A stretch of DNA of 64,000 nt from the IMG/VR virus record IMGVR_UViG_3300045988_121141, positions 1 to 64,000 of that record. The stretch is one strand, 5' to 3'. Below the pieces are notes generated by a model. It was not told the origin of the DNA, did no database searches, and saw only the letters and a list, made by a program, of their open reading frames with translations. Below are positions 1,351 to 61,760 of the stretch, in pieces (position 1 is the first letter of the stretch; each line of letters opens with the position of its first letter). The translations under genes and the position numbers were made by a program. This stretch comes from a virus.

Positions 1351-1650
1351 ATACATAACTCATACAAATCATAAACAATTTGTATCGTATTATGTATAAT
1401 AGCCAAAAGCTATTCCGATTATTAGCCTAAGTGTTGAAATAAACACTACGTTATTTGAGAATATATAGTTACCTACGGATGTTTACCCAAGTCTGTAGCT
1501 CTAAGGTAAGTGATTAAACAATGGTTGTATTCGAGCTATAGTGTTGCTTACGAAAAACCTTAAATAACATTGGCGATGGGTACTAACAGAGTTTTACTCT
1601 GACTTATGTTGAATAAACATTAAAAACGTTTGTAGATATGGTGTACGTAC
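1351..1650 (+). ncRNA. candidate IscB omegaRNA (non-coding leader immediately 5' of iscB)
   Basis: About 290 nt without a long ORF directly upstream of and abutting the IscB start; several local and long-range complementary segments (gtgtt/aacac hairpin near 1433, tagctc..gagcta near 1498/1545, gtaag..cttac). Position matches known IscB omegaRNA architecture. Confidence 0.3.
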
Positions 1651-2864
1651 AAGACATAAATGGTAAACCTATGATGCCAACAACAAGACATGGAAAGGTT
1701 AGGAGACTGCTCAAATCAAACAAAGCAGTCGTTGTAAACCTATGTCCGTTTACCATCAAATTAATGTACGTAACATCTGATTACAAACAAGAAATTGTGT
1801 TAGGCGTTGATGCTGGTACTAAACATGTTGGTTTATCGGCTACAACGAAAAGCAAAGAACTTTACAGTAGTGAAGTAATCCTTAGAAATGATATTGTAGA
1901 TCTTTTGTCTACCAGAAGGGAGCTACGAAGATCAAGACGAAATAGATTGAGATATAGAAAACCTCGTTTTGATAATAGAATAAAAAGTAAGCGTCCGGGA
2001 TGGGTAGCACCTTCGGTGAAATACAAAGTAGACGCCCATATTCGTGTTATTGACAATGTATGTTCTATATTACCAATATCTCGTATTGTTATCGAAGTAG
2101 CTCAATTTGATACTCAGAAGATTAACAATCCTGAAATATCAGGTAAAGAATATCAGGAAGGAGATCAACTTGGTTTTTGGAACGTAAGGGAGTATGTTTT
2201 AGCAAGGGATGGACATAAATGTCAGTATTGTAAAGGAAAATCGAAAGATAAGATCCTTAATGTTCATCACATTGAATCTCGAAAGACTGGAGGAAATTCT
2301 CCATCTAATCTTATTACCTTATGTGAAACATGTCATAAAGAATATCACAAAGGCAATATTAATTTAAAAGTAAAACGAGGCAAGTCGCTTCGCGACGCGG
2401 CCGTAATGGGAATTATGAAATGGAGGTTGTATGAAGGATTAAAGTCTAAATATGACAAAGTTTCTATGACTTTCGGTTATGTTACAAAATACAATAGGAT
2501 TTATAACAATATTGAAAAATCCCATGTTTCGGATGCTTTTATTATTTCTAAGAACTTTAATTCTATAAGGTTGGGTTATTATTATAAAGTAAGATTAATT
2601 AGAAGACATAATCGTCAAATTCACAAACAAAAGATTCCAAAAGGAGGGATAAAAAGACCAAATCAATCTCCTTTTGAAGTTTTTGGTTTCCGATTGTTTG
2701 ATAGGGTTATGTTTGAAAACAGTTATTACTTTATATTTGCAAGGCGTAAAACCGGTAGTTTTAATATTCGAGATATTGATGGTAAAAACCAAAGAGATAT
2801 TACATACAAGAAATTGAAATTATCAAGGTGTAAACGCTTTATGGTACAAAAGGAAATGGATTGA
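1638..2864 (+). CDS. iscB: IscB, IS200/IS605-family RNA-guided HNH/RuvC nuclease (OMEGA system)
   Basis: N-terminal PLMP-like domain (GKPMMPTTRHGKVRRLLKSNKAVVV..PFTIKL), RuvC-I (LGVDAGTKHVGLS), Arg-rich bridge helix (RRELRRSRRNRLRYRKPRFDNR), RuvC-II (IVIEVAQFD), HNH (CQYC..HHIESRKTGG..NLITLCETCHKEYH), RuvC-III (SHVSDAFII); 408 aa. Confidence 0.8.
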   Translation: MVYVQDINGKPMMPTTRHGKVRRLLKSNKAVVVNLCPFTIKLMYVTSDYKQEIVLGVDAGTKHVGLSATTKSKELYSSEVILRNDIVDLLSTRRELRRSRRNRLRYRKPRFDNRIKSKRPGWVAPSVKYKVDAHIRVIDNVCSILPISRIVIEVAQFDTQKINNPEISGKEYQEGDQLGFWNVREYVLARDGHKCQYCKGKSKDKILNVHHIESRKTGGNSPSNLITLCETCHKEYHKGNINLKVKRGKSLRDAAVMGIMKWRLYEGLKSKYDKVSMTFGYVTKYNRIYNNIEKSHVSDAFIISKNFNSIRLGYYYKVRLIRRHNRQIHKQKIPKGGIKRPNQSPFEVFGFRLFDRVMFENSYYFIFARRKTGSFNIRDIDGKNQRDITYKKLKLSRCKRFMVQKEMD

Positions 2865-54350: not shown

Positions 54351-54403
54351 AAAGATAAGAGAAACGAACGAGAAAATCCAACGTTATGGGATACGTTTAA
54401 AAA

Positions 54404-55423
54404 TCAATCATGTACGGCAGACAAACCGCCCGAATCAGGGTCGTACTTAAGACCGCATGCCCGGCGATAGTTCTTAAGCGCTCTCTTGTACAAAAACAGC
54501 ACTGTCTTGGAAACTATTTTCTTCATAGATTTGGTTAAAACCTCTTCTGTTGAAACAGACATCAGACAGCTATTCAAAAACGACCTGACATTGGAACCGA
54601 ACAAGATCTTCACCATTTTTCTAAACGTTCTAAAAAGATATGATGCAGAAAGAGACTTTAACCCATTGCGAACCAGTCTCTTATTCAAATACGAAACAGC
54701 CTTTTCAGATAGACAGAGCCTATTCTTTCCTTCGCTATCTACCTCTGATGAAAACCACGAATATAAAGTGGTAGGATGTTTCTTAAGGTGATTGATGAAG
54801 GAAGTCATTATCCCTTCTTTTAAGGCCCTTTTGTGGGCTACGCATGCAGCAATCTTCTCTTCTCTTTTTAAAGAGCTGTCAAGGCATCTAAACACCGTCC
54901 TATCGTCTCCGATGAAATACTGAGGACGTTCTTCCTTGAACTTAGCCCGATAAGCGGCATATCCTTCCTTACGAAGCATATCTATCTGAGACCGGATATA
55001 GAACCTTACACACTTTTCTTCAGCTTCTTGCACGCTTTTAAGATAAGGAACTGACTTTCTCCCATATCGAAGATAATCATAAACCATAGCCTCAATAAAG
55101 TCATTGTACGGAAAGAATCTTCCAAATCCAAAGTTCCAAACTATGAAACATCGCACTCTATCTTTCCAGTAATCAGATATGAGAAAATTACTACAATATC
55201 TCAACTTCCTGTTTTTCTGATAGAAATGATGAGTATGTTTGTCATAAAATAGATTAAAATATCTCAAATTGCCTAAACACTGACCGGCTGGACGGCGTAC
55301 TACATTGTACCCTAAGTTGCTGAAGCTATTGTATATAACTTCTATCGGAGAGACCTGCTCTTTCTTGAAGAGCTTGTCGTGTAACTTGTGAGGATTCATT
55401 ATTTCAGTTATTTTTGTCTCCAT
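54404..55423 (-). CDS. basic hypothetical protein (339 aa), apparently an independent transcription unit
   Basis: ORF; TATATTTG -7-like box about 21 nt upstream; hairpin further upstream. Confidence 0.55.
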   Translation of the reverse strand: METKITEIMNPHKLHDKLFKKEQVSPIEVIYNSFSNLGYNVVRRPAGQCLGNLRYFNLFYDKHTHHFYQKNRKLRYCSNFLISDYWKDRVRCFIVWNFGFGRFFPYNDFIEAMVYDYLRYGRKSVPYLKSVQEAEEKCVRFYIRSQIDMLRKEGYAAYRAKFKEERPQYFIGDDRTVFRCLDSSLKREEKIAACVAHKRALKEGIMTSFINHLKKHPTTLYSWFSSEVDSEGKNRLCLSEKAVSYLNKRLVRNGLKSLSASYLFRTFRKMVKILFGSNVRSFLNSCLMSVSTEEVLTKSMKKIVSKTVLFLYKRALKNYRRACGLKYDPDSGGLSAVHD

Positions 55424-55443
55424 ATTGTTTTTGTTGTTTAGTG

Positions 55444-55451
55444 CAAATATA
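55444..55451 (-). promoter_or_regulatory. Bacteroidota-type -7 box TAtaTTTG
   Basis: Exact TAnnTTTG match about 21 nt upstream of ATG at 55423. Confidence 0.35.
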
Positions 55452-55482
55452 TGATTTTATATAAAAAGAAGAAAATGCACTG

Positions 55483-55528
55483 CCTTGTATCCGGTTTGAG
55501 AGAAATAGGATACAAGGTTTTTTGTTTT
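55483..55528. terminator. hairpin ccttgtatcc..ggatacaagg with TTTTTTGTTTT on plus side
   Basis: 10-bp stem, 15-nt loop; T-run on plus strand, weaker U-rich on minus. Confidence 0.4.
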
Positions 55529-55740
55529 ATGACGGTTTGGATAAGAGACGGGAAAACGACTCTGAACGTAACCGTCTGACCGTCAGGAGTGGGACAACAA
55601 ATCTTGAATTAAAACTACGCCTATAAATAGTCTCCGTTTTCCTTAATATTAAGACCATTTTTAATGATCTTACTCATTATATTATTTATATTATTTTATA
55701 TACTTTACCATTTATTCATATAATTGTTTGCAGTGAATGA

Positions 55741-55915
55741 ACTTAACGACCGAAGGGAGTTAAGTGAGTGAACGGATTGACAAATTACTTTTTTCGTCTA
55801 TTGTATTGTTTGCCTAATTGTGTTAAAAGATTGAGTATCGTGACCGAAGGGAACGATGCGAAAAAATTTATAATATTTAAAAACGACTGAACCTATCGAC
55901 TGAAGGGAGATAGGT
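55741..55915 (-). ncRNA. three hairpins with conserved 11-nt loop GAC(C/T)GAAGGGA and covarying stems (candidate structured RNA or protein-binding sites)
   Basis: 55741-55765 acttaac/gttaagt; 55845-55869 (g)tatcgt/acgat(gc); 55891-55915 acctatc/gataggt; loops identical except one C/T; on minus strand the loop contains CUUCGG. Confidence 0.45.
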
Positions 55916-56178
55916 GATGGAGTGACGTTAATAATTATATTAGGTAGCCAGTGGAGAATTAGGCAGGCTGGTAGGCGAGACGGGCGTCCATGCCTGTCAG
56001 GACAGTGGAAGTACGTAGGTCTGTTCTGTTAAACAAAGGCGATGATAGTTCCATCCTTCACGAAATCGCACAGAAAAGCCGGATTATCTTGATGACGTTC
56101 TTCAACCTTCGGTATCCGTGTAACGAGTCTCAAATCCGGCTTCGCTTTATTAATATGAGGAAATAAAATAATATTGTT

Positions 56179-59160
56179 CTAATTATCGGTGACGCCTTTA
56201 ATGCGAAGCTGAATATTGGGAAGCACGGCATTAATCAAAGCCATTTTCTTATCCTCTTCGCTTTCTTTTTCATGCTGTTTATACATCATGCTGTAATCAC
56301 TGTCATCACCATCCTTTTTCCCGTCTAACGTCAGTAAATGATTTATGATGTCCTTACCATACGTTTCAGTCCATGTACGGAATCTCTCTTCCTCGGACTG
56401 TCTCTCCTGGGACGGGACTTCCGGGTTAGGAAGGGCGGCTGCCACTTCTACCTCTGGAAGTGTTACCGATGCTGCTATTTCAGCATCATCTCCGAATCCC
56501 ATTTGACCATACGAAGATACGGAATTTTCTTCAATTTCCAAACCAAGATTTTTAGCAACCTCCATAGCATAATTATAACGGTCATCGTTTCTTATAACAC
56601 TCTTATGAGGACGTCCTGCTCCTTGGTTCCAAGCTACTACAGCATCTTTCAGGTTATCGGCGTTCATAAAGTCCTGCCGGCTGTAGTTGTAATACCCTGG
56701 TCCTTCTTTTCCTTTTCTTGTGTATAAGAAATTAGAATATCCGGTTTTCCCTTCGTATTCATCAGCTAAAAACTCAAGTTGGTCTTTGAATGTTGGTGTA
56801 GAATGACCTTTCTTTTTGGCGTGCTTGAATAGCTTATCCATACGCTCATTATGCCATTGCTGTATGCCGTATGATGTTCTGTTGTCTCCGTATATGTCAT
56901 CTTTAAGACCGGATTCAGCCATGAGATTACCTATGATGGCAAGCGCTTGTATCTTGGACATACCTCGCTTATTAGTAAAGTAATCATATGCTTCACGCTG
57001 TTTTCCAATCACGCCGCCTTCCTCCATCTTACTTACATCATCTACTATACCCAACGTTGATATAACAGGATTTGCAATATCAAGTATATCATCCACTTTG
57101 TTTCCATATCTTCCCATAAAAGACATATTCCTTACCACATTCGTTCCTCCTATTGCTTCTGCCGCTCCACCAAGTATGCCGGCATAATTAAAGGCATTAT
57201 CACCTTCTGGATCTAAGGCAATCTGACTTCCATCAATACCTATATTGGACAATCCTGCTATGGTTTGTATCTTGCTACTTTCTGCTATTGTCTTAAGAAT
57301 TGGCATTAAATCTAATCCCATTTTATTATACAACCTAAGCATTCCAGGTGTGGAAGAAGCAACATCTGCAAGAGTAAGCAAAGATTCTGCCATTAACTTA
57401 TAAGGGTAAGCGTCCTCCTTGCTCTTGTTCTCCTTCCCCTTTTTAGCATCATCAATTCCCCCTTTTACCTTATCTATATCTATGGAATTTAAAAGATTAT
57501 TTATGATAGCGCCTATTTCTTCCCCGTTTCCATCTTTGGATATTATCAAATTTCCTATTTCACTATTTGAAAATCCGGCTATTCTTCTAAATTCGTCCTC
57601 ATCAATTTCACCTTTTTCAAGATCTGAATGAGCTTGTTCAAGTAATATCCTCCTCTTTTCTTGCCACTCCCCATTGTCATCTTGTCTTTTTACAATCTCA
57701 TCTCTCTTGTTTGGATCAATCCACCAATGTTTAGTTTCTCCACCTTCTCCGTATTTCCTTACAAACCTTTTAGGTAAAGCCTTGTCATTATTTCGAAGCA
57801 CACTACCTTTCTTAGGATCGTATTTGATACGTTCCCTTATTCTAAGAGGGACATCCCTTTCAGGTATGATGTCTTCCGCTATTTTCTTTCGACTAAAATC
57901 ATAATCATCCTTAACATCCAACATACCAGCATCAGGATCCCATCTTACACTGAAATTCTTCAACGCACCTAATCCGGAAGCTTCGTTTACTTTTTCAAAA
58001 TTGTCACCATATACTTCTTCTCTAAATGGACTTACACCTTCATTTACTAAAATCCATTTTCCTGGATTTTCAAATATATTTTTATTTAGTTTATCAAGGA
58101 CCTTCTTATAATCTATTATTTTTCGTTTACTTTTTTTATCAGCATCCTTATATGCCTCGTCAAGCATGTTGTTCATATACTCTTTATCTAATAAAGATTG
58201 TATCAAAATAGCTTGTTCTTGAGGCAATCCTACATACTGAGCGTCATCATCATCGTCATCAAAACGATACTTGCTTGCCGGCAATCTACTTATATCTCCA
58301 TCCGTGTAAGCTTTCCACATTTTTTCTTCAAAATCCGTGGCTGTATCTTCCCCCGATCGCTCTCTATTAGGATCCAACATACGTTTCATAGTAGGAATAA
58401 AATCGGCAATTAAACTAATAGGATCAGTGTCTAATATTGGATTAACGGATTCATACCACTTATCAGGATCAGCGTTATTGGATATACCAACTGATTTCAT
58501 ATTCGAATCAGATACCCTGACCTTATTTCCGTCATATCCTCTACCCACATAACCTGTATAATCATATTTAGCTTCCACATGGCGAGCGTCTTCGTATTTT
58601 GGACCATCAGTACCTTCTCCTACAGATTTGTCTTCTACTGGCTTGTTTTCAATCAGGACGTAGTTACTGTCGTCATCCACCGTCCAAGGCTGGTCTGTCG
58701 GCGTAGAGAACACCCGGCGCTCGAAGGCCCGGCGCTTCTTCTGGCCATCCATGTCGTCTTTCCATTCGTCATGATTTATTTCCTTAACCGCCTTATCAAA
58801 ATCTCCTTCTTTAAGATATTTGAATAGCATAGGACTTTTCATATAAGTATCAGCACCGGCATTGTAATACAAGCTAAAAAGAGCATCACGCTGATTATTG
58901 TTTAGATTATCAAAGTTTGGAGTAAGTTTCCTAAACTCAGGAACGAACGTATTTACTACGCCTGCAAATTCTTTGTCTGCTTGCTCTTCCGTTATACCCT
59001 TCTTGTATTTTTTAAGAAGGTGAGGCAAGTTAAATCCGTATCCGACAGTAATATTTCCTTCACCATCGTCATACGGTTTTGACCTAAATTTTTCCCACGA
59101 CTTCAAATATTTAAGAATATTTTCTGAAGGTTTCCAATCTGACTTACTCTTCTTTGCCAT
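56179..59160 (-). CDS. large virion protein with N-terminal GH24-like lysozyme domain and a second muralytic (phage-tail-lysozyme-like) domain (993 aa)
   Basis: N-terminus ILKYLKSWEKFRSKPYDDGEGNITVGYGFNL (T4-lysozyme-like E..D..T pattern); later ALAIIGNLMAESGL..YGIQQW region. Confidence 0.7.
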   Translation of the reverse strand: MAKKSKSDWKPSENILKYLKSWEKFRSKPYDDGEGNITVGYGFNLPHLLKKYKKGITEEQADKEFAGVVNTFVPEFRKLTPNFDNLNNNQRDALFSLYYNAGADTYMKSPMLFKYLKEGDFDKAVKEINHDEWKDDMDGQKKRRAFERRVFSTPTDQPWTVDDDSNYVLIENKPVEDKSVGEGTDGPKYEDARHVEAKYDYTGYVGRGYDGNKVRVSDSNMKSVGISNNADPDKWYESVNPILDTDPISLIADFIPTMKRMLDPNRERSGEDTATDFEEKMWKAYTDGDISRLPASKYRFDDDDDDAQYVGLPQEQAILIQSLLDKEYMNNMLDEAYKDADKKSKRKIIDYKKVLDKLNKNIFENPGKWILVNEGVSPFREEVYGDNFEKVNEASGLGALKNFSVRWDPDAGMLDVKDDYDFSRKKIAEDIIPERDVPLRIRERIKYDPKKGSVLRNNDKALPKRFVRKYGEGGETKHWWIDPNKRDEIVKRQDDNGEWQEKRRILLEQAHSDLEKGEIDEDEFRRIAGFSNSEIGNLIISKDGNGEEIGAIINNLLNSIDIDKVKGGIDDAKKGKENKSKEDAYPYKLMAESLLTLADVASSTPGMLRLYNKMGLDLMPILKTIAESSKIQTIAGLSNIGIDGSQIALDPEGDNAFNYAGILGGAAEAIGGTNVVRNMSFMGRYGNKVDDILDIANPVISTLGIVDDVSKMEEGGVIGKQREAYDYFTNKRGMSKIQALAIIGNLMAESGLKDDIYGDNRTSYGIQQWHNERMDKLFKHAKKKGHSTPTFKDQLEFLADEYEGKTGYSNFLYTRKGKEGPGYYNYSRQDFMNADNLKDAVVAWNQGAGRPHKSVIRNDDRYNYAMEVAKNLGLEIEENSVSSYGQMGFGDDAEIAASVTLPEVEVAAALPNPEVPSQERQSEEERFRTWTETYGKDIINHLLTLDGKKDGDDSDYSMMYKQHEKESEEDKKMALINAVLPNIQLRIKGVTDN

Positions 59161-59669: not shown

Positions 59670-61304
59670 TTAAATCTTAATCTTCTTAATTTCATCAATC
59701 ATATTCTTATATCCGCAGAACTTGCTGTTAATAACATCGAAGATAGATTCTGACCAGCCAGCTATGTTCAAGATATTAGATCCTCTGTAAAACATCTCAC
59801 TTCCATATCCTTGAATAGAAATAGAAACGATTTTGCAATTTGGATTCACTTTCTTGAACCCTTTCAAAAGTTCGGCGAATTTGCCATATCCATAACTGGA
59901 ACTTTTCTCCCATACAACAGATTCACCGTCTCCTATCTGCATATCTGAAATAACGTACAAGTTATCTACTTTGATCTTATCTTTAACGCACTTATCCAAG
60001 AATGCAAAAAGACCGTTTTCAGTGGCACCACCGCATTCTCCTCCGGCAGTAAAAGATTTTTTGTTATTCCATAAAACACCTTTACTTCTATCATATTCGT
60101 AATTGATAAGTTTGTCACCAAACATACCAATAAATACGTCAGGAAGCACAGAAGCAATCATACAGCCAAACAAGTTGCCAATGACAGCCGTACTTGTTTT
60201 GCTAAAGGCAGACACCTCAGAAGATCCTCCCATATCTCCACGTACAGAGCCAGAGTGGTCAATCAGGATAGCCGACCGCCCCTCCAATACCGGCAGGTTC
60301 TTGCAGGAGATGGTTATGGCTTTCTCCAACGCATCTAAAATCTTATATTTGTTACGCGCTGTTAATTTAGCACGTTTTTTATCCGACTCAAATACAATAT
60401 CATTATCGGAACCATCAGTGCCTATATTTTCAACCTCTTTGAAAGCTGAAGCAAAACGGAAAGGAAGCATCTTCGAATTAAGCACCTTCTCTTCTATTGT
60501 AAGCTGCCTACAAACTTCATCTATTTGATCAGGTGCGTATTTGATTATGTTTACAAGATTACGAACCATATTAAAAATAGGCATACCTTTTACATTAGAA
60601 ACCACGTCCCGAATAGCGTCACCTAAAGCTTCTTTCTTTTCCTTATTGTCTTTCTTATCCTGACCGGCCTTAGACATCTCTTTTTCAAGAATCTTGCTTT
60701 CGTATAATCCAGACAAAGATCGACCTTCTATAAGATACTGGAAAGCTGTTTTATTAACCTGATTGCTTTTGGGGTGAAATAAATTCACAAGATCAATCAT
60801 CGTAATAACCCTACTGTCCATCTTGTACTTGTCAATCCGATACGGATCAAGACCTTCCAGGGCCGTCTTAAACCCTTTCTTAATAGCGCTGGATATTCCT
60901 CTTAACTTCTTTGGATTTTTGTCGTTAAGAGCCGCATAGCAGCCAAGGATTTCGCTCATATCATCAGGACGCATAACGATCTTATTATAGAACCTTGAAG
61001 CCCATTCCTTACCCGATGCTTTGCTGGCAAGGACAGAAGCCATAAGATGCGTTACCGACCTAAGCTTTCCTTCTTTCCTGACATACAATGCTGTTTGTGC
61101 TGCGAAATATGGATCTACTTGATCCATAAGGTCCTTAATCCTGTTCACCTTGTCTTTTTCTTTCTCATAATAAGAATCAGACAACATGGTAGTCATTACC
61201 GTAGATACCAACTCTTCTTCTGCGTTAGGCTTATACGCCTTCTCTCCCATGTGATTCACGATCGTAGGTTTAACACCTTCATCCTTTTTGTTAAACTTTC
61301 CCAT
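59670..61304 (-). CDS. rsr: Ro60 ortholog (TROVE domain plus C-terminal von Willebrand A domain with MIDAS)
   Basis: N-terminal TROVE-like segments alignable to Ro60 (..TMLSDSYYEKEKDK..RIKDLMDQ..HLMASVLASKAS vs human GGTYYIKEQKL..ALIRLIED..FALAIASQCS); C-terminal vWA: ILIDHSGSVRG (DxSxS MIDAS), GGECGGATENG; 544 aa like Ro60. Confidence 0.75.
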   Translation of the reverse strand: MGKFNKKDEGVKPTIVNHMGEKAYKPNAEEELVSTVMTTMLSDSYYEKEKDKVNRIKDLMDQVDPYFAAQTALYVRKEGKLRSVTHLMASVLASKASGKEWASRFYNKIVMRPDDMSEILGCYAALNDKNPKKLRGISSAIKKGFKTALEGLDPYRIDKYKMDSRVITMIDLVNLFHPKSNQVNKTAFQYLIEGRSLSGLYESKILEKEMSKAGQDKKDNKEKKEALGDAIRDVVSNVKGMPIFNMVRNLVNIIKYAPDQIDEVCRQLTIEEKVLNSKMLPFRFASAFKEVENIGTDGSDNDIVFESDKKRAKLTARNKYKILDALEKAITISCKNLPVLEGRSAILIDHSGSVRGDMGGSSEVSAFSKTSTAVIGNLFGCMIASVLPDVFIGMFGDKLINYEYDRSKGVLWNNKKSFTAGGECGGATENGLFAFLDKCVKDKIKVDNLYVISDMQIGDGESVVWEKSSSYGYGKFAELLKGFKKVNPNCKIVSISIQGYGSEMFYRGSNILNIAGWSESIFDVINSKFCGYKNMIDEIKKIKI

Positions 61305-61633: not shown

Positions 61634-61760
61634 CAGGGATAACTTGGAAGGTGTTTTAAAGGAGGTTTTGATCTACCAACTGATCTAATTTTTCTTACAT
61701 GAAAAATACAGGACTCGAACCTGTGACACAAACCGAAGTATCACCTTCCATCACCACTGT
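61634..61760 (-). ncRNA. YrlA-like Y RNA candidate: permuted tRNA-like module (T-arm, loop-closed acceptor stem, D-arm) embedded in a long 5'/3' stem
   Basis: Minus strand order: GGAAGGTG..GGTTTG / TGTGTC / ACAGG-TTCGAGT-CCTGT / ATTTTTC-atgtaa-GAAAAAT / TA / GATC-AGTTGGTA-GATC / CAAAACC..CACCTTCC; termini pair (GGAAGGTG with CACCTTCC, GGTTTG with CAAAACC). Confidence 0.45.

What the first reader, a model, noticed from the sequence alone, without database searches (positions are those of the whole stretch)
55741..56010. Three hairpins with an identical 11-nt loop and covarying stems, next to a GC-rich island, in a 755-nt non-coding region
The loops read GACCGAAGGGA, GACCGAAGGGA and GACTGAAGGGA. 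They are closed by entirely different 6-7 bp stems (acttaac/gttaagt, tatcgt/acgat, acctatc/gataggt). The loop is conserved while the stems covary compensatorily, which is the signature of a functional structured RNA or a repeated protein-recognition hairpin. On the transcribed minus strand the loop contains a C(UUCG)G tetraloop-like core. The following segment (about 55935-56000) is conspicuously GC-rich for this genome. It lies between the lysozyme-domain virion gene and an isolated 339-aa gene.
Basis: seen in the sequence. Interest (0 to 1): 0.6.

Follow-up and report, generated by a model that had tools for sequence, protein, structure and literature searches.

The report
Capped hairpin array in phage cassette
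Three hairpins with the same structured 11-base cap are real and evolutionarily maintained; they belong to a previously undescribed, optional 1.8-kb module (structured non-coding DNA, a predicted antisense small RNA and an orphan protein gene) of epsilon crAss-like gut phages, whose function is still unknown.

Summary
GACYGAAGGGA occurs three times, only here (0.06 expected by chance), each time closed by a different 7-bp stem.

- **The cap.** The "loop" is structured: a tandem G·A/A·G clamp, 1-2 covarying base pairs and a GNA or GNNA loop. That makes it a CCGAAGG/GCGAAGC-type mini-hairpin.
- **The strand.** Wobble pairs, covariation and a base-pair deletion put the fold on the + strand. This is the strand opposite the flanking genes. 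The proposed minus-strand C(UUCG)G is not conserved.
- **The context.** The hairpins belong to a 1.8-kb accessory cassette (54351-56178). It also holds a G-rich island, an AT-rich spacer, and a second hairpin with a constant loop and free stems followed by a U-run. That hairpin lies downstream of a conserved antisense promoter, so I predict a ~100-nt antisense sRNA. The cassette ends with an orphan 339-aa gene.
- **Distribution.** A paralogous cassette sits about 37 kb away in many of the same genomes. Some relatives lack the cassette. Homologues at 22-44% identity also follow long non-coding regions with similar caps.
- **Matches.** Nothing matches in Rfam, Pfam, PHROGs, PDB sequences or fold libraries.

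Function is unresolved. The best guess is a protein-recognition hairpin array in a + strand RNA (0.4). The main rival is single-stranded DNA initiation signals, as promoters (0.2) or priming sites (0.13).

The parts
55741..55765 (+). Hairpin unit 1: ACTTAAC [GACCGAAGGGA] GTTAAGT. The extended helix with two more GA/GA steps spans 55733-55773.
   Evidence: RNA fold -11.7 kcal/mol, z -4.25, against -6.8 on the - strand. Population variants ACTTGAC, GTTGAGT, ACTTAAT and GTTAGGT all keep pairing as G.T on the + strand.
55835..55859 (+). Hairpin unit 2: GTATCGT [GACCGAAGGGA] ACGATGC (one T.G pair). In most relatives it is flanked by GA-TT-GA ... GA-AA-GA.
   Evidence: -11.8 kcal/mol, z -4.85. Orthologous units GGATATC/GATATGC (L267) and ATATCGT/GCGATAT (paralogous cassette) carry compensatory changes.
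55891..55915 (+). Hairpin unit 3: ACCTATC [GACTGAAGGGA] GATAGGT. The extended helix spans 55883-55923.
   Evidence: -13.3 kcal/mol. Cap variants in relatives are GACTGAAAGGA (T-A replaces T.G), GAC-GAA-GGA (a whole base pair deleted) and TACCGAAGGGA.
55935..56010 (+). G-rich island with conserved blocks GTAGCCAGTGGA, GGTAGGCGAG and CAGGACAG, and G2-tract (G-quadruplex-like) runs.
   Evidence: GC 0.575, skew up to +0.62. (blocks conserved among the window, L267 and the paralogous cassette). (G-tract motifs lie on the hairpin strand in the four cassettes compared, namely the window, L267, L264 and L307, and in L319, where both are on the other strand).
55600..55740 (.). AT-rich spacer (GC 0.18-0.20 at 55620-55739) between the gene-proximal elements and the hairpin array.
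   Evidence: An AT-rich stretch occupies the same position in the other cassettes.
55531..55600 (+). Conserved gene-proximal element: inverted repeat GACGGTTTGG.../...AACCGTC, then CTGAnCnTCAG and GGTGGGACAA.
   Evidence: inverted repeat I3. (CTGA.C.TCAG..GGTGG.ACAA aligned in three divergent cassettes).
55483..55529 (+). Hairpin T: CCTTGTATCC [GGTTTGAGAGAAATA] GGATACAAGG followed by TTTTTTGTTTT. It is terminator-shaped on the + strand.
   Evidence: Five cassettes have fully paired stems sharing only 1-5 of 7-10 positions, a conserved loop GUU(U/C)GnGAnAAU(A/G), and a U-run on the strand opposite the gene. Positions 55500-55519 are nearly invariant in the population (variability 0.001), and the 5' arm at 55480-55499 is also conserved (0.020).
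55409..55416 (+). Bacteroidetes-type -7 promoter box TATTTTTG (TAnnTTTG) on the + strand, inside the first codons of the orphan gene. It predicts an antisense RNA of about 100 nt, roughly 55425-55527, ending at hairpin T.
   Evidence: a box at the same relative position in 4 of 6 divergent cassettes. (present in all 80 near relatives). The RNA itself is inferred, not observed.
55444..55451 (-). Promoter -7 box TATATTTG of the orphan gene.
   Evidence: a sense-strand TAnnTTTG at the same relative position in 5 of 6 cassettes.
54404..55423 (-). Orphan 339-aa basic protein gene, the constant partner of the non-coding region.
   Evidence: no Pfam or PHROG family. (20 hits among 1.84 billion representatives). 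(in the loci that hold upstream sequence, homologues are preceded by 540-1095 nt of non-coding DNA; L308 starts at a contig end). (no fold or sequence match to solved structures).
56076..56142 (-). Hairpin AAGCCGGATT...AATCCGGCTT followed by TTTTCTG on the - strand. It is the probable terminator of the lysozyme gene. It lies within the cassette-specific sequence and contains a CCGAAGG mini-hairpin on the - strand (56112-56106).
   Evidence: inverted repeat I21. (conserved in L267). (absent downstream of the lysozyme gene in L260, which lacks the cassette).

Best explanation
**What it is.** The three hairpins are a strand-specific array of recognition modules. Each has a free Watson-Crick stem capped by the same compact structure: a tandem G.A/A.G clamp, 1-2 base pairs and a GNA or GNNA loop.

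**The cassette.** They belong to a self-contained accessory cassette of epsilon crAss-like phages (window 54351-56178). Its parts are an upstream terminator, a G-rich island, the hairpin array, an AT-rich spacer, hairpin T, two face-to-face overlapping promoters and an orphan basic protein gene.

**Most likely mechanism (inferred).**
- The array is read in single-stranded form as + strand RNA, either one non-coding RNA or short hairpin RNAs.
- The caps are docking sites for a protein, most plausibly the cassette's own orphan protein, which always travels with them.
- Synthesis of that protein is held down by a ~100-nt antisense RNA (about 55425-55527). It starts at a conserved promoter inside the first codons of the gene and ends at hairpin T.

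**Shown.** The structure, the strand, the covariation, the cassette and its presence/absence and duplication, and the conserved promoter boxes and hairpin T.

**Inferred.** That the array is transcribed, that the orphan protein binds it, that the antisense RNA exists, and what the module does for the phage.
For: **Structure and covariation.**
- 96.4% of cells pair, against 73.4% in shuffles and 36-46% for slid partners. Eight of 11 pairs change on both sides.
- The cap pair Y4-R8 runs C-G, U.G, U-A, or is deleted as a pair. C3-G9 becomes G-C (GAGCGAAGCGA) or A-U (GAACGTAGTGA) in other cassettes.

**Strand.**
- In hairpin 1 every population variant in a paired position is a G.U-type change on the + strand, and G.U is the standing majority state in units 2 and 3. 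Only two singleton sequences, in the caps of units 2 and 3, break a pair.
- + strand RNA folds of -11.7 to -13.3 kcal/mol compare with -5.0 to -7.3 for the - strand.

**RNA-like features.**
- A U.G pair closes the triloop in most copies of unit 3.
- GAAUC/GUGA internal loops appear in other cassettes.
- L307 has a GUGA tetraloop version of the cap.

**Link to the protein.**
- The non-coding region and the gene are gained, lost and duplicated together.
- Homologues down to 22% identity keep a long upstream non-coding region, with capped hairpins in L307 and L319. In the distant members L263 and L318 I found only hairpins with a C-G-closed GNA or GNNA loop and no GA clamp.

**Transcription in that direction.** A conserved + strand TAnnTTTG box and a U-run after hairpin T show a + strand transcription unit in the cassette.

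**Precedent.** Long intergenic regions of the crAss-like phage phi14:2 give abundant non-coding RNAs of unknown function (bioRxiv 10.1101/2020.03.07.982082).
Against: - No transcript data are available.
- No host-type promoter box lies between hairpin T and the array in any cassette. Hairpin T looks like an efficient terminator, so read-through from the antisense promoter may be small.
- Sigma-70-like matches upstream of the units are no more frequent than in shuffles (3 found, 3.5 expected).
- C-G-closed GNA triloops are the hallmark of DNA mini-hairpins, whereas stable RNA hairpins usually carry tetraloops (PMC13037366).
- In L319 the capped hairpin and the G-rich island lie on the gene-sense strand, in a different order along that strand. 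This does not fit one conserved RNA architecture.
- The consensus fold of the whole region has no pair with changes on both sides. The fold of the whole region is not significant (z -1.58).
- The orphan protein has no recognisable RNA-binding domain, and no recognisable domain of any kind.
Confidence: 0.4

Rival explanations
1. The hairpins are template-strand DNA hairpin promoters. They would extrude from supercoiled or transiently single-stranded DNA and be recognised by the injected virion RNA polymerase. Transcription would then run leftward, towards the orphan gene. This would be a functional analogue of the three early promoters of coliphage N4.
For: - The cap core is a DNA mini-hairpin (CCGAAGG, GCGAAGC, CCGGAGG, CCGTAGG). 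N4 early promoters use GCGGAGC or GAA-loop mini-hairpins on the template strand with 5-7-bp stems (PMC13037366; N4 P2 oligonucleotide GAAGC-GGA-GCTTC in PMC13492108).
- Here the hairpin strand is the template strand for the orphan gene and all flanking genes.
- There are three copies, as in N4.
- The crAss-like virion polymerase gp66 transcribes single-stranded but not double-stranded DNA, and no sequence motif was found at its early promoters.
- crAssE-Sib is reported to encode a phi14:2-like virion polymerase (PMC11054128).
- An optional gene inside a late operon would need its own early promoter and insulating terminators, and the cassette has both.
Against: - The crAss polymerase is unrelated to N4's T7-like enzyme.
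- The units are much more elaborate than N4 hairpins: a 7-bp stem plus a clamp, then further GA steps.
- T.G closes the triloop in most copies of unit 3, which should weaken a DNA mini-hairpin (the closing pair matters; abstract of PMC3201870).
- Hairpin T and 200-400 nt lie between the array and the gene, which also has its own host-type promoter.
- In L319 the capped hairpin is on the non-template strand.
- I found no DFDxD motif in the large ORFs of this window.
Confidence: 0.2
2. The region is an accessory replication module. The hairpins would be single-strand initiation (priming) signals next to an AT-rich unwinding region and a GC-rich block. The orphan protein would be the initiator or primase, and the antisense RNA a copy-control countertranscript, as in small plasmid replicons.
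For: - A CCGAAGG mini-hairpin is part of RSF1010 ssiA, which is recognised by the RepB' primase. GCGAAAGC lies at the G4 priming site (PMC13037366).
- The layout of gene, antisense RNA, AT-rich stretch, repeated elements and GC-rich block resembles plasmid origins (my own knowledge of RSF1010, ColE2 and R1 organisation).
- A fourth CCGAAGG lies on the other strand at 56112-56106.
- The distant cassette L263 has iteron-like direct repeats (ATACCAGTA.C / ATACTGGTAGAT) plus C-GGA-G and C-GCA-G hairpins.
Against: - The cassette is dispensable and can be present twice, which is odd for an origin.
- It lies inside the late structural block, not at a switch in gene orientation.
- The protein shows no similarity to any Rep, primase or helicase loader.
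- No classical iterons are present in the window's own copy.
Confidence: 0.13
3. The cassette is a selfish mobile element. The hairpins would be strand-specific single-stranded DNA recognition sites for the orphan protein acting as a transposase or homing enzyme. Antisense control would resemble IS10 RNA-OUT or the IS200 antisense RNA.
For: - The cassette shows presence/absence polymorphism and sits at two different intergenic sites in the same genomes. Both sites are just upstream of a similar late promoter, TTATCTTTGTGnAAAAAG.
- An outward-facing antisense promoter inside the 5' end of the gene resembles IS10 (my own knowledge).
- The same cap occurs in dispersed intergenic repeats of giant-virus contigs, on both strands.
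Against: - There are no target-site duplications, terminal inverted repeats or hairpins at the cassette ends.
- All units cluster in the middle of the non-coding region.
- The protein has no transposase, recombinase or nuclease signature.
- Only two insertion sites were seen.
Confidence: 0.1
4. The hairpins are minus-strand RNA elements: UUCG-capped hairpins in the 3' UTR of the lysozyme gene or the leader of the 339-aa gene, acting as stabilisers or terminators.
For: - The flanking genes are on the minus strand.
- Units 1 and 2 read C(UUCG)G on that strand.
Against: - Unit 3 and many variants read UUCA or UUUC.
- The observed polymorphisms would be A.C mismatches on the minus strand.
- Minus-strand folds are about half as stable.
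- The clamp would be U.C/C.U mismatches.
- No U-run follows any unit.
Confidence: 0.03

Closest known systems
DNA mini-hairpins d(GCGAAGC)/d(GCGAAAGC) and their biological uses (N4 early promoters P1-P3; RSF1010 ssiA; phage G4 complementary-strand origin)
   Same: - The cap core is CCGAAGG, CTGAAGG, GCGAAGC, CCGGAGG, CCGTAGG or C-GTGA-G. In every case a GNA or GNNA loop with a sheared G.A is closed by C-G.
- It sits on top of a 5-7-bp stem and is strand-specific.
- The literal CCGAAGG of ssiA is present, and there are three copies as in N4.
   Different: - An extra tandem G.A/A.G clamp surrounds the mini-hairpin, and further GA steps lie below the stem.
- U.G and U-A closing pairs are tolerated.
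- No T7-like virion polymerase or RepB'-type primase has been identified.
- Action as DNA is not shown.
Arrays of protein-binding RNA hairpins with a constant loop and free stems (lambda boxB/N; CsrB/RsmZ GGA hairpins; phage coat-protein operators)
   Same: - The motif is repeated on one strand, with a constant apical structure and covarying stems.
- A partner protein is plausibly encoded next to it.
   Different: - The cap is neither a GNRA-like pentaloop nor an ANGGA loop. GGA is lost in the GAGCGAAGCGA and GAACGTAGTGA caps.
- No N-, CsrA- or coat-like protein is present.
- The array lies on the strand opposite the neighbouring genes.
Antisense-RNA-controlled genes with face-to-face overlapping promoters (IS10 RNA-OUT/RNA-IN; symE/SymR; plasmid countertranscripts such as CopA or ColE2 RNAI)
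   Same: - A conserved promoter box inside the first codons points outward.
- A hairpin plus U-run lies about 100 nt downstream.
- The predicted RNA overlaps the 5' end of the mRNA.
   Different: - The RNA has not been observed.
- The loop of hairpin T is conserved although the mRNA from the mapped promoter box would not contain its complement.
- The regulated protein is an orphan.
Type III toxin-antitoxin loci (ToxIN)
   Same: Repeats, then a terminator-like hairpin, then a protein gene.
   Different: - The units are not identical direct repeats.
- They fold on the opposite strand to the gene.
- The protein is twice the size of ToxN and unrelated to it.

Membership tests
N4-type hairpin promoter | The hairpin forms on the template strand of the genes it drives. 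| tested here: met
   The folded strand is +, and all neighbouring genes are on -. The exception is the distant cassette L319.
N4-type hairpin promoter | A 5-7-bp stem directly capped by a 3-nt G-N-A loop with a C-G closing pair. | tested here: inconclusive
   A GNA loop (GAA, GGA, GTA) closed by C-G is present. It is separated from the 7-bp stem by two base pairs and a G.A/A.G clamp, and T.G or T-A closing pairs occur.
N4-type hairpin promoter | Recognition by a T7-like virion RNA polymerase, with a transcription start about 11 nt from the loop centre. | not testable with these tools
   The phage group is reported to have a phi14:2-like (two-barrel) virion polymerase, not a T7-like one. No transcript ends are available.
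Single-strand initiation signal (RSF1010 ssiA/ssiB, G4 ori) | A hairpin containing a CCGAAGG or GCGAAAGC mini-hairpin. | tested here: met
   CCGAAGG is in units 1 and 2 and CTGAAGG in unit 3. GCGAAGC is in the paralogous cassette.
Single-strand initiation signal (RSF1010 ssiA/ssiB, G4 ori) | A cognate primase, and a position within an origin (iterons, unwinding element). | tested here: inconclusive
   An AT-rich stretch and a GC-rich block are present. The window's copy has no iterons, although L263 has iteron-like repeats. The orphan protein shows no primase or Rep similarity.
Any Rfam family | A match to a covariance model. | tested here: not met
   At gathering thresholds the window matches only HEARO and tRNA. 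In 55300-56300 nothing scores better than E = 1.
Y RNA / YrlA (partner of the phage Ro60/Rsr) | A YrlA-like fold and linkage to rsr. | tested here: not met
   There is no YrlA hit in the region. A YrlA-like element lies elsewhere, at 61641-61751. L260-L262 keep rsr but lack the cassette, and the paralogous cassette is not near rsr.
CsrB/RsmZ-type sponge | An unpaired (A)NGGA in the hairpin loops. | tested here: not met
   The GGA of the cap is paired or clamped, and it is replaced by GCGA or GUGA in other cassettes.
Kink-turn / box C/D | A 3-nt bulge between a canonical stem and the tandem G.A pairs. | tested here: not met
   The GA steps are symmetric and continuous with the helices, with no 3-nt bulge in any unit.
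Type III toxin-antitoxin | Identical tandem direct repeats on the same strand as, and upstream of, a ToxN-like gene. | tested here: not met
   The units share only the cap and short flanks (61-73% identity over 49 nt). They fold on the opposite strand. There is no ToxN, AbiQ or other family hit.
Protein-coding region | A conserved open reading frame. | tested here: not met
   The only + strand ORF across the units (55768-55890, 40 aa) is broken by a 1-nt indel after 55798 in many relatives.

The most novel reading that the evidence does not exclude
The clamped mini-hairpins are the long-sought early promoters of a crAss-like virion RNA polymerase. They would be DNA hairpins on the template strand that give the single-strand-dependent enzyme an entry point. 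This would be a convergent reinvention of the N4 strategy by an unrelated, RNAi-polymerase-like enzyme, used here to express an optional early gene cassette.
Probability: 0.15. Interest if true: 0.85.

Novelty: new variant of a known kind. Interest (0 to 1): 0.6.

Why it matters
- **An uncharted phage group.** Epsilon crAss-like phages are abundant human-gut viruses with no cultured member, and their non-coding DNA has not been described. This work defines a recurrent, mobile, three-part module: a structured hairpin array, a predicted antisense RNA and an orphan protein family. That family has only about 20 representatives among 1.84 billion.
- **A simple diagnostic.** The cap consensus is GA-(1-2 bp)-GNA/GNNA-GA.
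- **If the hairpins act as DNA.** They would give the first concrete candidates for how a crAss-type virion RNA polymerase, or a phage primase, finds its start sites. That question was left open by the phi14:2 study.
- **If they act as RNA.** They define a new phage ribonucleoprotein.
- **Testability.** Either way the hairpins, their cap mutants and the 339-aa protein are directly testable with oligonucleotides.
- **A wider motif.** The same clamped cap tops unrelated hairpins in giant-virus contigs, so it may be a more general structural building block.

Tried and rejected
**Searches that found nothing useful**
- **Rfam.** The whole window at gathering thresholds and the region at E up to 10 gave nothing relevant.
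- **GenBank phages.** By DNA, or with the 339-aa protein as query, the only related record is csAssE-Sib. The lysozyme protein gave 74 further, distant domain-level matches that did not bear on the region. Its paper does not mention the region.

**Motifs checked in the orphan protein**
- A HUH/YxxK motif that I noticed by eye (HTHH, YRAK) is not conserved in the family alignment, so I dropped the HUH-Rep idea.

**Families and readings rejected**
- The Ro60/Y-RNA link, a CsrA sponge, a kink-turn, type III TA, a coding ORF and a minus-strand UUCG were all rejected. The reasons are in the membership table.

**Structure of the whole region**
- The consensus fold of 55700-56060 has no pair that changes on both sides, and its z-score is not significant. 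I therefore do not claim a global RNA fold.

**Promoters**
- Sigma-70-like promoter matches upstream of the units are at chance level.

**Is the 11-mer common in viruses?**
- A control scan with the reversed 11-mer gave a similar number of unrelated contigs (8), but none in a hairpin context. The motif is therefore not over-represented as such. Only its use as a hairpin cap is special.

**Mobility**
- Cassette junctions show no target duplication or terminal repeats.

**Virion polymerase**
- I found no DFDxD motif in the five large ORFs that I checked on the minus strand of this window.
Full report
**1. The observation**

The sequence is as described. GACYGAAGGGA occurs three times in the 64-kb window, at 55748, 55842 and 55898, all on the + strand. 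Shuffles give a mean of 0.06, and none of 100 reaches three.

Each copy is enclosed by a perfect or near-perfect 7-bp inverted repeat:
- ACTTAAC/GTTAAGT
- ACCTATC/GATAGGT

The non-coding gap is 55424-56178 (755 nt). It lies between a 339-aa ORF and a 993-aa ORF with two lysozyme domains, both on the minus strand. The GC-rich island is real: GC is 0.575 at 55940-56019, with a strong G excess on the + strand.

**2. What the '11-nt loop' really is**

About 200 near-identical relatives in IMG/VR supply natural mutants.
- Positions 4 and 8 of the 11-mer covary: C-G (GACCGAAGGGA), T.G (GACTGAAGGGA) and T-A (GACTGAAAGGA, 33 loci).
- In eight distinct sequences both positions are deleted together, giving GAC-GAA-GGA.
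- In more distant cassettes positions 3 and 9 change from C-G to G-C (GAGCGAAGCGA) or A-T (GAACGTAGTGA). The central triplet is GAA, GTA or GGA.
- One lineage has GA-C-GTGA-G-GA.

The cap is therefore a tandem G.A/A.G clamp, then 1-2 base pairs, then a GNA or GNNA loop. In other words, it is a CCGAAGG/GCGAAGC-type mini-hairpin held in a G.A clamp. Below the 7-bp stem the helix continues through more symmetric GA/GA steps. An example is GU-GA-AU-GA-stem...stem-GA-GU-GA-AC in unit 1.

I tested the proposed structure on 15 unit variants from three cassettes.
- 96.4% of cells pair, against 73.4% in shuffles and 36-46% when partners are slid.
- Eight of 11 pairs change on both sides.
- These variants are a mix of paralogous units and population variants, so they are not independent events.

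**3. Which strand**
- In hairpin 1 every population variant in a paired position is a G.T-type change on the + strand. These are ACTTGAC, GTTGAGT, ACTTAAT, GTTAGGT and C4-to-T, and each would be an A.C mismatch on the minus strand.
- G.T is the majority state in units 2 and 3.
- Only two singleton sequences break a pair, both in the caps of units 2 and 3.
- My count over all cassettes is about 11 G.U-type states against 2 A.C-type states on this strand. That count is my own tally, not a tool output.
- As RNA, the + strand units fold at -11.7, -11.8 and -13.3 kcal/mol (z -3.7 to -4.9). The minus strand gives -6.8, -5.0 and -7.3.

The folded strand is the + strand, opposite to all neighbouring genes.

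**4. The hairpins are part of an optional, duplicated cassette**

The window is about 97% identical to phage csAssE-Sib (OR575929.1), an epsilon crAss-like phage (PMC11054128).

Presence and absence:
- In relatives whose lysozyme is 85%, 63% or 51% identical (L260-L262), the lysozyme gene is followed after 74-191 nt by the ~946-aa structural gene.
- These relatives therefore lack both the 755-nt region and the 339-aa gene.
- Other relatives keep both at this site: L267 (protein 83% identical), L307 (44%) and L308 (41%).

A paralogous copy:
- A cassette with a protein about 61% identical lies between a DUF6808 gene and a 292-aa structural gene.
- It occurs in the same genomes as the first cassette, about 37 kb away. 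At least 18 IMG/VR contigs carry both.
- It is absent at that site in csAssE-Sib itself.

The protein family:
- It is tiny, with 16 clusters and 20 hits among 1.84 billion representatives.
- In every member locus that holds upstream sequence, 540-1095 nt of non-coding DNA precede the gene (L308 starts at a contig end), including members at 21-25% identity.
- It has no Pfam, PHROG, PDB-sequence or fold match.

Unit copy number also varies: L158 carries unit 1 twice.

**5. Other conserved parts of the cassette**

Aligning the window with L267 and the paralogous cassette, and inspecting L307, L318 and L319, shows a common layout.

In the window, L267, the paralogous cassette and L307, three features sit on the strand opposite the gene:
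- an array of capped hairpins;
- a G-rich island with invariant blocks (GTAGCCAGTGGA, GGTAGGCGAG, CAGGACAG) and G2-tract runs;
- an AT-rich spacer.

In L319 the capped hairpin and the G-rich runs are together on the gene-sense strand.

Next to the gene lies a second hairpin of the 'constant loop, free stem' kind, hairpin T (55483-55517).
- Its stems share only 1-5 of 7-10 positions between five cassettes, yet they are fully paired.
- Its loop is conserved as GUU(U/C)GnGAnAAU(A/G).
- A U-run always follows it on the strand opposite the gene.

Upstream of hairpin T on that same strand, inside the first codons of the gene, is a Bacteroidetes-type TAnnTTTG box (55409-55416).
- It is found at the same relative position in 4 of 6 divergent cassettes and in all 80 near relatives.
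- The gene's own TAnnTTTG box faces it, at 55451-55444.

This predicts an antisense RNA of about 100 nt (about 55425-55527) that overlaps the 5' end of the mRNA. That is inference; no expression data were available. No host-type promoter box lies between hairpin T and the hairpin array in any cassette.

**6. The cap elsewhere**

Pattern scans of IMG/VR found the identical 11-mer capping unrelated hairpins in at least eight other viral contigs. Several are giant-virus MAGs. They have different, covarying stems and even the same GACTGAAAGGA variant.

A control scan with the reversed 11-mer found as many contigs (8), but only as plain tandem repeats with no hairpin context. The 11-mer is therefore not enriched as a word. 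It does recur as a hairpin cap, which suggests an intrinsically favourable structure.

The core is the known 'mini-hairpin' (PMC13037366).
- d(GCGAAGC) and d(GCGAAAGC) are extraordinarily stable.
- CCGAAGG is part of RSF1010 ssiA, which is recognised by the RepB' primase.
- GCGGAGC or GAA loops form the N4 virion-polymerase promoters.
- GCGAAAGC lies at the G4 priming site.

The N4 P2 template-strand hairpin is GAAGC-GGA-GCTTC (PMC13492108).

**7. How it most likely works**

Shown:
- a strand-specific array with a constant cap and free stems;
- tight linkage to an orphan protein gene in an optional, duplicated cassette, which also carries the promoter box and terminator-shaped hairpin from which I predict antisense control.

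The general reading that fits all of this is an array of recognition sites on a single-stranded nucleic acid for a protein, most plausibly the cassette's own.

RNA or DNA cannot be decided here. I put the RNA form first (0.4).
- G.U pairs are frequent and are often the majority state, including as the closing pair of the triloop.
- Other cassettes have RNA-typical GAAUC/GUGA internal loops.
- There is a transcription unit on that strand.
- crAss-like phages make abundant non-coding RNAs from long intergenic regions.

Against the RNA form:
- Hairpin T looks like a good terminator, and no promoter follows it.
- GNA triloops closed by C-G are a DNA signature.
- L319 has a different order and strand.

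The DNA readings together get about 0.4:
- Template-strand hairpin promoters for the virion RNA polymerase, which depends on single-stranded DNA (0.2). The orientation fits, there are three copies as in N4, and no early-promoter motif is known for crAss-like phages.
- Priming or origin signals with the orphan protein as initiator (0.13).
- Recognition sites for mobility of the cassette (0.1).

The minus-strand RNA reading is essentially excluded (0.03).

**8. Comparison with known systems, and novelty**

The element fails or leaves open the defining tests of every family I considered: Rfam families, Y RNA, CsrB-type sponges, kink-turns, type III TA, N4 promoters and ssi signals. Details are in the membership table.

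Its building block, a GNA mini-hairpin, and its logic, a constant cap on free stems repeated on one strand, are known. The G.A clamp, the cassette, the orphan protein family and hairpin T with its conserved loop do not appear in the literature I could search.

I therefore rate it a new variant of a known kind of element, with a real chance of being something more distinct once its function is known.

**9. Limits**
- Most sequence variation comes from very close relatives, so counts are not independent events.
- The divergent cassettes are few (six).
- Unit alignments between cassettes were made by eye from tool outputs.
- Promoter boxes are consensus matches in AT-rich DNA.
- Nothing here shows transcription, binding or any phenotype.

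Noticed in passing
window 1396-1587 (+) and ORF 1638-2864 (+): There is a HEARO RNA (Rfam RF02033, 101 bits, E 1e-19), the guide-RNA scaffold of IscB nucleases. A 408-aa ORF follows it directly, so this looks like a phage-borne IscB/omega-RNA locus.
   Followed up: no
window 61641-61751 (-), upstream of ORF 59670-61304 (-): A YrlA-like Y RNA candidate scores 35.5 bits (E 5e-6), below Rfam's gathering score of 69. It has a T-arm (CAGGTTCGAGTCCTG), a D-arm-like hairpin and a closing stem GGAAGGTG/CACCTTCC. It lies next to a Ro60/Rsr homologue (TROVE domain, E 1.6e-14), and so looks like a phage Ro60 and Y RNA pair.
   Followed up: partly
window 61757-61748, about 61616-61590 and 61520-61498 (-): Three copies of a GTGGTGATGG...ACTTCG(G/A) leader-like motif precede, in turn, the Y-RNA-like element, a degenerate tRNA-like stretch (annotated tRNA-Tyr in csAssE-Sib but not called here) and tRNA-Lys. 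This suggests serial duplication of a tRNA-type unit.
   Followed up: no
L189, L193/L195, L105/L141/L145, L117, L143, L156 (IMG/VR contigs, several GVMAG): Giant-virus and other viral contigs carry dispersed intergenic hairpins with unrelated, covarying stems. All are capped by the same GC-GACCGAAGGGA-GC, with a GACTGAAAGGA variant in L193/L195. They occur on both strands and often in tandem. They may be a repeat family or a processing signal in their own right.
   Followed up: partly
L263:3344-4332: In a distant relative the equivalent non-coding region holds iteron-like direct and inverted repeats (ATACCAGTA.C / ATACTGGTAGAT). It also has two adjacent hairpins with C-GGA-G and C-GCA-G triloops on the gene-sense strand, followed by a 312-aa protein 21% identical to the orphan protein.
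   Followed up: partly
window 54351-54403, compared with L264:4072-4153 and OR575929.1:41637-41719: Both cassette sites end immediately upstream of very similar late-promoter-like sequences, TTATCTTTGTGnAAAAAG. This could be the recombination or targeting point for cassette exchange.
   Followed up: partly
L261:634-1824: In one relative a TnpB-like gene (OrfB_IS605 / Cas12f-like) sits directly upstream of the Ro60 gene. It is another RNA-guided nuclease in this phage group.
   Followed up: no
window 55776-55794 (+): A small conserved hairpin, GATT-GACA-AATT, is followed by ACTTTTTT just after unit 1. It has a GNRA-type loop plus a U-run. It is too weak to call a terminator, but it is nearly invariant in the population.
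   Followed up: no
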